The position numbers and the translations under genes were made by a program. DNA of 48,057 nucleotides from a virus (taxonomy: Duplodnaviria > Heunggongvirae > Uroviricota > Caudoviricetes): the IMG/VR virus record IMGVR_UViG_3300048091_000424; one strand, given 5' to 3'. The notes under the pieces were generated by a model. The model was not told the origin of the DNA. It did not search any database and was given only the letters and a program-made list of their open reading frames with translations. Below, piece after piece: positions 43,121 through 44,407 of this stretch (position 1 is its first letter; each line of letters opens with the position of its first letter).

Positions 43121-43137
43121 GTGAAACTTTTTACCGC

Positions 43138-43347
43138 CTAAGCCTTGTTTTCTGCCGCTTCGGTATCGAACATATCGCCGAATATTGCCAAGTGATCTTC
43201 CCTACTCAGCTTTGACATGCATTGCGCCAGCCGCTGATCCATCTGCTGATTCTGTAACATCAGCCTTTCCAGGTCATCCACCTGCACCTCGACCACCGGT
43301 GCCTCTGCCTGTCTTGCTTTCCGTAGAGCAATTCTCAGTCTTAACAT
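43138..43347 (-). CDS. Small hypothetical protein embedded in the tRNA array
   Basis: AGGA RBS, 69 aa, fills the gap between the tRNA-like RNA and tRNA-Lys(CTT). Confidence 0.55.
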   Translation of the reverse strand: MLRLRIALRKARQAEAPVVEVQVDDLERLMLQNQQMDQRLAQCMSKLSREDHLAIFGDMFDTEAAENKA

Positions 43348-43373
43348 GCGTTGATCCTACGGTGTTGCCTTGT

Positions 43374-43609
43374 TGGTGGAGATGACGGGACTTGAACCCG
43401 TGTGGTCTACGACTAAGGGATTTTCGGCCCTCAGCTCAATGCAGGTTTAGAGTACGCTTCCCTTGCTGCTTTTACCCCACCCTGGGGGAGTGATTACCGA
43501 TCCAGGGCCGCTATAGGTGCTTCTGACACATTCCCCTGATTGATTAGTAGGTGGTTTTTACACCTCGGCTTCTAATTTTAGCCGTGCCTTGCCTCTCAGC
43601 CACATCCCC
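43374..43609 (-). ncRNA. 236-nt tRNA-shaped RNA with an alanine-type acceptor and a large structured insert
   Basis: Acceptor GGGGATG/CATCTCC with G3-U70, A73 and CCA; T arm ACGGG-TTCAAGT-CCCGT; D-like arm GCTGAGAGGCAAGGC; about 170 nt in place of the anticodon/variable region. Confidence 0.75.
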
Positions 43610-43656
43610 TTAACTTTCTCGAAGCTAGATTACAATTAAGCTGTAACCTATTGATT

Positions 43657-44326: not shown

Positions 44327-44407
44327 TGGTTCCATGACCAGGGTTCGAACCTGGGCCTCCTACCTACTATTTCAAGGCCTGGACTCTACCGACTGAGTTA
44401 TCACGGA
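44327..44407 (-). pseudogene. Phe-like aberrant tRNA (anticodon arm disrupted, about 5 extra nt)
   Basis: Acceptor TCCGTGA/TCATGGA, D arm, T arm and CCA are intact; the middle CAGGCCTTGAAATAGTAGGTAGGAGGC forms no canonical 5-bp/7-nt arm. Confidence 0.6.

What the first reader, a model, noticed from the sequence alone, without database searches (positions are those of the whole stretch)
43374..43609. 236-nt tRNA-shaped RNA with alanine identity and a pseudoknot-capable insert instead of an anticodon
Seen: a perfect 7-bp acceptor with G3-U70, A73 and encoded CCA (the AlaRS determinant, also used by tmRNA), a canonical T arm and a Cys/Ser-like D arm. The insert has hairpins CGGCT/AGCCG (43584..43566) and AGGTG/CACCT (43565..43549), a long-range 7-bp helix CGGCCCT (43510..43504)/AGGGCCG (43431..43425), and AAGGGA (43464..43459)/TCCCTT (43420..43415), which would cross that helix as a pseudoknot. 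Hypothesis (a), mini-tmRNA: it is about 100 nt shorter than typical tmRNA, and the only internal frame ends ...SEAPIAALDR*, not the usual ...AA*. Hypothesis (b), relic of a group I intron-containing tRNA-Leu(UAA): the junction G|AAAATCCCT and the start AAAATTAGAAGCC resemble trnL introns, but the candidate intron is only about 155 nt, lacks the P7 GACUA/UAGUC pair and the anticodon stem does not re-form. Hypothesis (c), an undescribed aminoacylatable ncRNA or decoy. It is co-transcribed in the array and directly followed by a 69-aa ORF.
Basis: partly seen in the sequence, partly recalled or inferred. Interest (0 to 1): 0.8.

Follow-up and report, generated by a model that had tools for sequence, protein, structure and literature searches.

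The report
Alanine tRNA mimic with giant arm
A 236-base gene in a giant Pseudomonas plasmid's tRNA cluster encodes a real, conserved, expressed RNA with a tRNA body marked for alanine and a large conserved folded domain on its side arm. It matches no catalogued RNA family, is not the plasmid's ordinary ribosome-rescue RNA, and its function is unknown.

Summary
Window 43609..43374 (- strand) has a 7-bp acceptor stem with G3-U70, A73 and an encoded CCA, plus a D arm and a T arm. I collected 11 distinct homologues, all inside tRNA arrays of ~1-Mb Pseudomonas megaplasmids or soil and rhizosphere contigs. On these, a ten-helix structure is 98% paired, and 31 of 55 pairs show compensatory changes. 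Short contigs from four soil metatranscriptome studies cover the element but not its flanks.

It is not an intron-bearing tRNA. It is not a canonical tmRNA either, because the plasmids carry a normal ssrA next to their own smpB. It is not a recognisable YrlA. Rfam 15 has no family for it.

The ~135-nt insert sits where a class II variable arm, or tmRNA helix 2, emerges. Its 89-nt core is 88% identical across the family, while the helices around it are 46-62% identical. A conserved 69-aa ORF occurs only directly downstream of this RNA (12 of 12 loci), and RNA plus ORF form an indel cassette relative to a 96%-identical array.

Best reading: a non-decoding, alanine-accepting tRNA mimic that carries a cargo domain. 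The mechanism is inferred.

Earlier notes from this scan describe architecturally similar "tRNA-shaped RNAs with giant variable arm" on other DNA. I could not test whether they are homologous to this one.

The parts
43374..43609 (-). Whole RNA gene, 236 nt, from G1 to the encoded 3' CCA
   Evidence: CM R1 matches end to end at 182.5 bits. There are 11 distinct homologues.
43603..43609 (-). Acceptor stem, 5' strand (GGGGAUG); pairs with 43378-43384
   Evidence: G1-C72, G2-C71 and G3-U70 are invariant in 11/11 and G4-C69 in 10/11. Pairs 5-7 covary (AU/GC/UG, UA/CG, GC/AU).
43586..43600 (-). D arm (GCUG-AGAGGCA-AGGC) with A14 and G18G19
   Evidence: The stem has compensatory changes, GCUC/GAGC to GUCC/GGAC. 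GG is present in the loop of every homologue.
43566..43584 (-). Hairpin A, in the anticodon-arm position, with a 9-11 nt loop (AAA-Y-Y-R-R)
   Evidence: 100% paired, with one compensatory C-G to U-A change. Loop length and the would-be anticodon (UAG, CAG, UGA) vary between homologues.
43553..43564 (-). Hairpin B (GGY-GUAAAA-RCC)
   Evidence: 100% paired, and 2 of 3 pairs are compensatory.
43547..43551 (-). P2, 5' strand; pairs with 43406-43410. It closes the whole insert and emerges 4-5 nt before the T arm, the variable-arm position.
   Evidence: All 5 pairs have changes on both sides; 94.5% paired. RNAalifold also predicts it on an independent MAFFT alignment.
43535..43543 (-). H3, 5' strand; pairs with 43436-43445. 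It closes the conserved core.
   Evidence: 9 of 10 pairs are compensatory; 99% paired.
43446..43534 (-). Conserved core. It contains J1 (GGAAU), the small hairpin GUG-UCAGAAG-CAC, J2 (CUAUAGCG), helix X with a 16-nt loop, and a purine-rich 33-nt J3.
   Evidence: Mean pairwise identity is 88%, against 46-62% in the flanking helices.
43479..43508 (-). Helix X (GCCCUGG / CCAGGGU) with the loop AUCGGUAAUCACUCCC, which holds an invariant UAA
   Evidence: 100% paired, with 3 compensatory pairs. The UAA is invariant in all homologues.
43494..43514 (-). tmRNA-like mini-frame: AUAG-CG then GCC CUG GAU CGG UAA (A-L/S-D/E-R-stop)
   Evidence: Read directly from the sequence. The plasmids' own ssrA genes have AUAGUC|GCA or AUAGUU|GCC at the resume codon. 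ARAGORN at 70% thresholds picks ASER* in one homologue only.
43412..43435 (-). Hairpin C, variable in sequence with an A-rich loop
   Evidence: 98.7% paired, with 4 compensatory pairs. Its 3' strand could alternatively pair with J3 (43459-43464).
43385..43401 (-). T arm (ACGGG-UUCAAGU-CCCGU)
   Evidence: 100% paired, with 2 compensatory pairs.
43374..43384 (-). Acceptor stem 3' strand, A73 and CCA
   Evidence: ACCA is present in 10 of 11 distinct homologues; L007 has AUCA.
43141..43347 (-). 69-aa ORF, 26 nt downstream on the same strand; an optional companion gene
   Evidence: Only 6 homologue clusters exist among 5.8 billion proteins. All 10 fetched loci have the RNA 26-42 nt upstream, and so does L006. 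19 columns of its alignment are invariant.

Best explanation
This gene belongs to an undescribed family of tRNA-shaped, non-decoding RNAs.

Shown:
- It lies inside a tRNA array with no internal promoter or terminator.
- It folds into a full tRNA body: a 7-bp acceptor stem, a D arm, a hairpin in the anticodon position and a T arm.
- A ~135-nt domain grows from the variable-arm position. This domain is a closing helix (P2), a three-way junction (H3, a small hairpin and helix X) and a variable hairpin C.
- Selection keeps the bacterial alanine identity set while the rest of the acceptor stem covaries.
- Selection keeps the sequence of the 89-nt core.
- RNA from it is present in soil metatranscriptomes.

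Inferred:
- RNase P and 3' trimming release it like its tRNA neighbours.
- The host AlaRS charges it with alanine.
- It does not read codons, because the loop in the anticodon position is 9-11 nt long and its would-be anticodon changes between near-identical copies.
- The tRNA body supplies processing, stability and entry to tRNA-handling machinery (AlaRS, EF-Tu, the ribosome).
- The conserved core is the working part. It binds a partner, either the ribosome or a protein. In one sub-lineage the partner is probably the 69-aa protein that never occurs without this RNA.

The layout parallels tmRNA, since the cargo emerges where tmRNA helix 2 emerges, but this RNA is not a member of the tmRNA family.
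For: - Structure: the ten-helix model is 98.3% paired over 11 distinct sequences and 31 of 55 pairs are compensatory. Controls with slid partners are 33-46% paired, and 0 of 500 shuffles reach the observed values. RNAalifold on an independent MAFFT alignment gives 20 compensatory pairs.
- Alanine identity: G2-C71, G3-U70 and A73 are kept in 11/11 and G4-C69 in 10/11, while pairs 5-7 covary. This is the bacterial alanine identity set listed in PMC9976931.
- Conserved core: 88% identical against 46-62% for the helices.
- Context: always inside tRNA arrays, starting 5-47 nt after the preceding tRNA, with no promoter or terminator on its strand within the array.
- RNA: contigs of 182-336 nt from four metatranscriptome studies cover the element and not the ORF or the neighbouring tRNA-Trp.
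- No catalogued family: Rfam finds nothing except sub-threshold tmRNA matches through the tRNA-like ends.
- Non-decoding: loop A is 9-11 nt long and its would-be anticodon is UAG, CAG or UGA. L005 and L003 differ there although they are otherwise nearly identical.
- Companion gene: ORF69 occurs only behind this RNA, in 12 of 12 loci.
- Accessory cassette: a 96%-identical array in genome G001 has 83 unrelated nt in place of the ~500-nt RNA+ORF block.
Against: - Nothing here shows charging, 5'/3' processing, ribosome binding or protein binding.
- G20, a minor alanine determinant, is not present.
- One homologue ends in UCA instead of CCA, and one has a degenerate T loop.
- ORF69 is absent from 5 of the 11 RNA variants, so it cannot be the general partner.
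- The single-sequence folding energy is no better than that of shuffled sequences.
- RNA-library contigs cannot prove transcription or define the ends of the RNA, and one of them runs 106 nt past the 3' end.
- All 11 sequences are fairly close kin, so invariant positions are partly due to shared descent.
Confidence: 0.5

Rival explanations
1. It is a true miniature tmRNA. Ala-charged RNA enters stalled ribosomes, the ribosome resumes on GCC, and it translates a 4-codon message (A-L/S-D/E-R) that ends at the UAA in the loop of helix X. That rescues ribosomes without adding a degradation tag.
For: - The alanine identity set is kept.
- P2 emerges at the variable-arm position, the direction of tmRNA helix 2 (PMC3985003).
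- Helix X carries an invariant UAA in its loop, like tmRNA helix 5.
- An in-frame Ala codon GCC is preceded by AUAG at positions -6 to -3, as in the plasmids' own ssrA genes (AUAGUC|GCA, AUAGUU|GCC).
- Positions -6 to +1 set the resume frame in tmRNA.
- A small hairpin lies 8 nt upstream, where PK1 would be.
- smpB is on the same plasmids.
- ARAGORN at lowered thresholds calls ASER* in one homologue.
Against: - A canonical ssrA with an ...ALAA or ...LAA tag sits beside smpB on all four plasmids.
- RF00023 scores only 25-29 bits against a gathering score of 47.
- ARAGORN finds nothing at default settings, and the tags it calls at lowered thresholds differ between homologues.
- The RNA has a paired D stem and a hairpin in the anticodon position, the place SmpB occupies on tmRNA.
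- No PK1 is supported by covariation.
- Codon 2 switches between Leu and Ser, following the pairing of helix X, and the peptide does not end in AA.
- One variant has lost U-5 (AUAAGCG).
- Conservation extends over 89 nt, far more than a 4-codon message needs.
Confidence: 0.18
2. It is an uncharged or charging-independent decoy or scaffold. The tRNA body only provides processing and stability. The RNA titrates a tRNA-binding factor, for example SmpB as TLD-only tmRNA fragments do, or a tRNA-targeting nuclease of a host or rival defence system.
For: - Mycobacteriophage DS6A carries little more than a tmRNA TLD, and a similar molecule strongly inhibits tmRNA whether or not it can be charged (PMC4131195).
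- The element is accessory and cassette-like.
- It lives on a mobile element rich in translation and RNA-repair genes.
Against: A pure decoy would not need an 89-nt core conserved at 88%. It would also not need strict retention of G3-U70 and A73 while the neighbouring pairs change.
Confidence: 0.15
3. It is a Y-RNA-like partner of the plasmid's Ro60 (Rsr) protein, acting in RNA repair or decay alongside RtcB, like YrlA.
For: - W01, W03, W04 and G001 encode a full-length Rsr with TROVE and Ro60-vWA domains. It aligns to D. radiodurans Rsr (2nvo) at E 1.5e-23.
- RtcB is on all four plasmids.
- No YrlA reaches threshold on any of them, so Rsr's RNA partner is unidentified.
- YrlA also mimics a tRNA (PMC4201824).
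- Earlier notes from this scan link similar RNAs to Ro60-like genes.
Against: - Occurrence does not match. FeN3W (W02) has the RNA but no Rsr, while pMPPla107 (W04) and G001 have Rsr but no RNA.
- The RNA is 20-285 kb from rsr, whereas YrlA lies within 4 kb.
- The GNCGAAN0-1G motif is not conserved.
- RF02553 does not match the element.
- The ends of this RNA are in the acceptor stem with a CCA, whereas YrlA's acceptor stem is closed by a loop.
Confidence: 0.08
4. It is a tRNA gene interrupted by an intron or an insertion, or a decaying pseudogene.
For: The ends are canonical tRNA ends.
Against: - The anticodon called differs in every homologue, and most homologues give no call at default thresholds.
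- There is no group I or group II intron match.
- The insert is the best conserved part and covaries throughout, which decay would not produce.
Confidence: 0.02

Closest known systems
tmRNA (SsrA; Rfam RF00023) with SmpB
   Same: - The alanine identity acceptor stem (G3-U70, A73, CCA) and the T arm.
- A large cargo domain that leaves the tRNA-like body at the variable-arm position.
- A hairpin with a stop codon in its loop, preceded by an AUAG-N2-Ala-codon motif.
- Encoded on replicons that also encode SmpB.
   Different: - It has a paired D stem and a hairpin in the anticodon position.
- It has two extra hairpins outside P2.
- It has no PK1 to PK4.
- The frame is at most 4 codons, not conserved as a peptide, and does not end in AA.
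- It is 236-244 nt long, against 351-395 nt for the plasmids' own ssrA.
- It scores below the Rfam gathering score.
- It shares no sequence with the co-resident ssrA beyond the T arm and the acceptor 3' strand.
TLD-only tmRNA-like RNA of mycobacteriophage DS6A (PMC4131195)
   Same: A mobile-element-encoded, alanine-type tRNA-like RNA without a normal tag message.
   Different: DS6A's RNA is little more than the TLD. This RNA carries a conserved ~135-nt structured domain and a complete D arm.
YrlA / bacterial Y RNAs (Rfam RF02553; PMC4201824)
   Same: A tRNA mimic with D and T arms and an added functional module. The host replicons encode Rsr and RtcB.
   Different: - The topology is reversed: YrlA's ends form the Ro-binding stem and its acceptor stem is closed by a loop.
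- The Ro-binding motif is not conserved here.
- The gene is not next to rsr.
- It does not co-occur with rsr.
Class II tRNAs (Leu, Ser, Tyr) and tRNA-Ala
   Same: A cloverleaf body with an arm emerging between the anticodon arm and the T arm. The acceptor stem matches tRNA-Ala, and the next-best matches of the family model are the arrays' tRNA-Ala genes.
   Different: The 'variable arm' is ~135 nt long and branched. The anticodon loop is 9-11 nt long with no stable anticodon. Neither ARAGORN nor Rfam's tRNA model calls it a tRNA.

Membership tests
tmRNA (RF00023) | tRNA-like domain with G3-U70, A73, CCA and a T arm | tested here: met
   Invariant in 11 of 11 distinct homologues, except that one 3' end reads UCA.
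tmRNA (RF00023) | Score at or above the Rfam gathering score (47 bits), or a call by ARAGORN | tested here: not met
   28.6 and 25.4 bits, and no full-length match in the Leaf58 copy. ARAGORN makes no call at default settings.
tmRNA (RF00023) | An unpaired D-loop analogue, with helix 2 directly replacing the D stem and anticodon arm (the SmpB site) | tested here: not met
   There is a 3-4 bp D stem with compensatory changes, plus hairpins A and B, before P2.
tmRNA (RF00023) | Pseudoknot PK1 upstream of the resume codon | tested here: inconclusive
   Only a 3-bp hairpin is present. The candidate pseudoknot GGAAU x AYUCC is 91% paired but never covaries.
tmRNA (RF00023) | A conserved tag reading frame that starts at an Ala codon and ends in a proteolysis signal (..LAA) | tested here: not met
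   The frame is only GCC-YYR-GAK-CGG-UAA. It reads ALDR, ALER or ASER, and the Leu/Ser switch follows helix pairing.
tmRNA (RF00023) | Stop codon in the loop of a helix 5-like hairpin, and a -6..-3 AUAG-type upstream motif | tested here: met
   The UAA in the loop of helix X is invariant. AUAG is present in 10 of 11; L060 has AUAA shifted. Compare the plasmid ssrA genes.
tmRNA (RF00023) | Binds SmpB and performs trans-translation | not testable with these tools
   smpB is on the plasmids, but it is adjacent to the canonical ssrA.
Group I intron-containing tRNA | Intron core (P3-P9) recognisable, and a stable anticodon arm restored after its removal | tested here: not met
   No RF00028 match at E<=10. 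The anticodons called with introns allowed are inconsistent.
YrlA / Y RNA (RF02553) | Match to the family model and the GNCGAAN0-1G Ro-binding motif | tested here: not met
   The element has no RF02553 match. The motif appears only by chance in the window-type loop of hairpin C and is not conserved.
YrlA / Y RNA (RF02553) | Encoded within ~4 kb of rsr and co-occurring with it | tested here: not met
   W02 has the RNA without rsr, and W04 and G001 have rsr without the RNA. The distance from rsr is 20 kb or more.
Canonical elongator tRNA (RF00005) | 7-nt anticodon loop with U33 and a conserved anticodon | tested here: not met
   The loop is 9-11 nt long and its central triplet is UAG, CAG or UGA. 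Rfam's tRNA model and ARAGORN do not call it.
Alanine-accepting RNAs (AlaRS substrates) | Bacterial identity set A73, G2-C71, G3-U70, G4-C69 (PMC9976931) | tested here: met
   11/11, 11/11, 11/11 and 10/11 (identity set quoted). The minor determinant G20 is absent. Actual charging cannot be tested here.

The most novel reading that the evidence does not exclude
The RNA is an all-RNA analogue, or a surviving evolutionary intermediate, of tmRNA. It would be a complete tRNA-Ala-like body whose own anticodon-position hairpin fills the place that SmpB fills on tmRNA. Its variable arm would carry a minimal message (AUAG-CG|GCC...UAA in a helix 5-like loop). It would then rescue stalled ribosomes without SmpB and without adding a degradation tag.
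Probability: 0.1. Interest if true: 0.9.

Novelty: new variant of a known kind. Interest (0 to 1): 0.62.

Why it matters
tmRNA is the only well-understood bacterial RNA that combines an alanine-accepting tRNA end with a functional cargo. A second, unrelated family with the same ends, a complete tRNA body and a different, strongly conserved cargo would show that this design has arisen more than once.

This family sits on mobile replicons that already carry ssrA, smpB, Rsr, RtcB, PTH2 and ~50 tRNAs. That adds to the picture of giant plasmids bringing their own translation and RNA-quality-control toolkit.

It is directly testable in cultured strains (Pseudomonas sp. Leaf58 with pBASL58, and P. 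silesiensis G3 with pPL1). The tight link to a 69-aa protein of unknown fold family gives a concrete first partner to test.

Standard annotation (ARAGORN, Rfam 15, and the plasmid records) misses the gene entirely.

Tried and rejected
Searches for more copies that found nothing:
- blastn against 50,697 phage records.
- blastn against 401 Pseudomonas genomes.
- Exact core patterns in GTDB representative genomes and IMG/VR. The three raw matches had no CM match and no tRNAs, so they are chance.
- The family model finds no copy on pMPPla107 or in G001.

Tests of origin:
- Derivation from the plasmid's own ssrA: no similarity beyond the T arm and the acceptor 3' strand.
- The 83-nt filler in G001 as a remnant of the element: its alignment score is not above shuffles.

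Tests of possible partners or targets:
- Complementarity of the conserved 18-mer to other sites on the plasmids or in G001: only chance-level matches with 2-3 mismatches.
- A CsrA/Rsm sponge, suggested by three invariant GGA motifs: no CsrA gene on the plasmids.
- A plasmid-borne AlaRS: none.

By eye I noticed resemblances to the 16S 3' end and to the 530 loop (CGGUAAU, CAGCAG). I dismissed them because they are not collinear, not conserved in all variants, and 7-mers are expected by chance.

ORF69:
- No Pfam family.
- Atlas hits score 0.81 or less.
- AlphaFold gives a short helix plus a long helix (pLDDT 81). I did not run a fold search because a helical hairpin is uninformative.

Full report
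**What is there.** Read on the minus strand, window 43609..43374 has these features:
- a 7-bp acceptor stem GGGGAUG/CAUCUCC with G3-U70, followed by A73 and an encoded CCA
- a D arm, GCUG-AGAGGCA-AGGC
- a canonical T arm

It lies in a cluster of 21 ARAGORN-called tRNA genes, 22 by Rfam, all on the same strand. No promoter-like or terminator-like site lies on that strand inside the array. ARAGORN and Rfam at gathering thresholds both ignore it. With permissive thresholds the only Rfam signal is tmRNA RF00023 at 28.6 bits, against a gathering score of 47, and it aligns only through the acceptor stem and T arm. No group I intron, YrlA or other family appears, either here or in two homologues. The single-sequence folding energy is not better than that of shuffled sequences (z = -0.63).

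**Homologues.**
- blastn found full-length relatives at 74-78% identity in three ~1-Mb Pseudomonas megaplasmids: pPL1 of P. silesiensis, an unnamed plasmid of Pseudomonas sp. FeN3W, and pBASL58 of strain Leaf58.
- An exact-pattern scan of metagenomes added three distinct variants.
- Following the downstream ORF added four more.
- In total there are 11 distinct sequences of 236-244 nt. Those on long enough contigs are flanked by tRNA genes.
- None was found in phage records, 401 Pseudomonas genomes, GTDB representatives or IMG/VR. The few raw pattern matches were chance.
- The founding member of this plasmid family, pMPPla107, lacks it.
- The paper describing that plasmid family mentions tRNAs but neither tmRNA nor this RNA (PMC6482414).

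**Structure.** I derived a secondary structure from RNAalifold on a MAFFT alignment, which gave 20 compensatory pairs, and from inspection. From it I built a covariance model and realigned all copies.

On 11 distinct sequences, 98.3% of cells pair and 31 of 55 pairs have changes on both sides. Partner-slid controls pair at 33-46%, and no shuffle out of 500 reaches the observed covariation. The alignment is fitted to the model, so these counts lean towards it. The independent MAFFT result points the same way.

The order of elements along the RNA is:
- acceptor stem, 5' strand
- a 2-4 nt linker
- D arm
- 1 nt
- hairpin A (4-5 bp, 9-11 nt loop), exactly in the anticodon-arm position
- hairpin B (GGY-GUAAAA-RCC)
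- P2 (5 bp, all pairs covarying), which encloses:
  - H3 (9-10 bp, 9 pairs covarying), which in turn encloses the conserved core
  - a variable hairpin C
- 4-5 nt
- T arm
- acceptor stem, 3' strand

P2 therefore emerges where a class II variable arm emerges. That is also the direction of tmRNA helix 2 (PMC3985003).

**What selection keeps.**
- The 89-nt core is 88% identical across the family, while H3, P2 and hairpin C are 46-58% identical. The core contains J1, a GUG/CAC hairpin, J2, helix X with a 16-nt loop, and a purine-rich J3.
- In the acceptor stem, G1-C72, G2-C71 and G3-U70 are invariant, and so is A73. G4-C69 is kept in 10 of 11. Pairs 5-7 covary. These are the bacterial alanine determinants (PMC9976931).
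- The loop of hairpin A keeps AAA-Y-Y-R-R, but its length varies. Its central triplet is UAG, CAG or UGA, and it differs between two nearly identical copies. It is therefore unlikely to be an anticodon.

- The 7-bp CGGCCCU/AGGGCCG helix is not better than chance. Both strands belong to well-supported local helices.
- AAGGGA/UCCCUU has modest support. The J3 tetramer tracks the 5' strand of hairpin C from variant to variant, and 0 of 500 shuffles reach the observed count of double changes. It may be an alternative pairing that crosses H3, which would make it a pseudoknot or a switch. This is unresolved.
- A further candidate pseudoknot, GGAAU with AYUCC in the loop of helix X, is invariant and so cannot be tested by covariation.

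**Is it the plasmid's tmRNA?** No.
- All four megaplasmids examined carry a canonical ssrA (155-182 bits) with tags such as ANDNQFALAA. It lies right beside a plasmid smpB that scores 175-189 bits.
- The element shares nothing with those ssrA genes except the T arm and the acceptor 3' strand.
- ARAGORN calls no tmRNA at default settings. At lowered thresholds it calls different tags in each homologue.

Some tmRNA-like traits remain:
- Helix X has an invariant UAA in its loop.
- In frame before it lies GCC, preceded by AUAG at positions -6 to -3. That is the same motif as at the resume codons of the plasmids' ssrA genes.

Against the tmRNA reading:
- The frame has only four codons.
- It switches between Leu and Ser in step with helix pairing.
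- It does not end in AA.
- One variant has lost U-5.
- The paired D stem and hairpin A occupy the place where SmpB sits on tmRNA.

I rate the mini-tmRNA reading at about 0.18.

**Is it a Y RNA?** Earlier notes from this scan led me to test this.
- The plasmids do encode a genuine Ro60/Rsr, with TROVE and Ro60-vWA domains and a full-length match to PDB 2nvo. They also encode RtcB. No YrlA reaches threshold on them.
- Occurrence does not match. FeN3W has the RNA without Rsr, while pMPPla107 and G001 have Rsr without the RNA.
- The Ro-binding motif is not conserved.
- The gene is far from rsr.

I rate this reading at about 0.08.

**Expression.** Six RNA-library runs hold part of the element. In the four runs I laid, each from a different study, contigs of 182-336 nt cover 43370-43613. 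None covers the ORF, the spacer or the tRNA-Trp gene. One contig continues 106 nt past the 3' end into sequence unlike the window. Contigs cannot prove transcription or define the ends of an RNA. Even so, finding just this 236-nt piece of a rare plasmid in small soil metatranscriptomes points to a stable RNA.

**Companion gene and mobility.**
- The 69-aa ORF 26 nt downstream has only six homologue clusters among 5.8 billion proteins.
- All ten loci fetched for those clusters have the RNA 26-42 nt upstream on the same strand. So does the metagenome contig L006.
- The protein is conserved, with 19 invariant columns. It is predicted to be a short helix plus a long helix and has no family.
- Five RNA variants lack the ORF.
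- The nearest genome held (G001) has an array 96% identical to the window on both sides. There, the ~500-nt RNA+ORF block is replaced by 83 unrelated nt.
- In pPL1 the RNA sits at a different place in an otherwise collinear array.

The RNA is thus an accessory module that moves within arrays, sometimes together with its ORF.

**Verdict.** This is a real, conserved, probably expressed member of an RNA family absent from Rfam 15 and from the literature I could search. The best-supported reading is a non-decoding, alanine-accepting tRNA mimic. Its tRNA body gives it processing and access to tRNA-handling machinery, and its conserved variable-arm domain binds a partner. Charging, processing and the partner are inferred, not shown.

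Earlier AI notes from this scan describe architecturally similar RNAs on other DNA. I could not test whether they are homologous to this one.

Noticed in passing
window 44330-44407 (- strand): A second odd tRNA-like gene. Rfam's tRNA model scores it at 41.2 bits, but ARAGORN does not call it. It has a normal acceptor stem, D arm and T arm, but the anticodon region looks like a GGCC/GGCC stem with an ~18-nt loop. The same gap exists in the G001 array.
   Followed up: no
L013-L016, L009-L011, L020 (plasmids pMPPla107, pBASL58, pPL1, FeN3W): All four ~1-Mb Pseudomonas megaplasmids carry their own canonical ssrA (tags ANNDNFDAPVALAA, ANDNAFEGARLAA, ANDNQFALAA, ANDESFALAA) directly beside their own smpB. 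The paper describing this plasmid family does not mention this.
   Followed up: partly
L037/L045 (pPL1), L038/L046 (pBASL58), L047 (pMPPla107), L048 (G001); L041-L044: The megaplasmids encode a full-length Ro60/Rsr orthologue (TROVE plus Ro60 vWA) and RtcB, but no YrlA reaches the Rfam threshold. Rsr's RNA partner on these plasmids is therefore unidentified. FeN3W lacks Rsr.
   Followed up: partly
window 43141-43347 (- strand); L055-L064; L006:9087-9284: A conserved 69-aa helical protein with no known family, found only immediately downstream of the tRNA-like RNA. Its invariant block reads DLERL..Q.MD..LA.CM..LS..D....FGD.F.
   Followed up: yes
L002:1928-2599 (FeN3W plasmid): In FeN3W the RNA is the last gene of the array, and a tyrosine recombinase gene follows ~190 nt downstream. 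This recalls islands that integrate at the 3' ends of tRNA and tmRNA genes.
   Followed up: no
window 43127-43625 versus L034:2023-2105 (G001): A presence/absence polymorphism. The tRNA arrays are 96% identical on both sides, but the ~500-nt block of RNA plus ORF69 is replaced by 83 unrelated nt in G001.
   Followed up: yes
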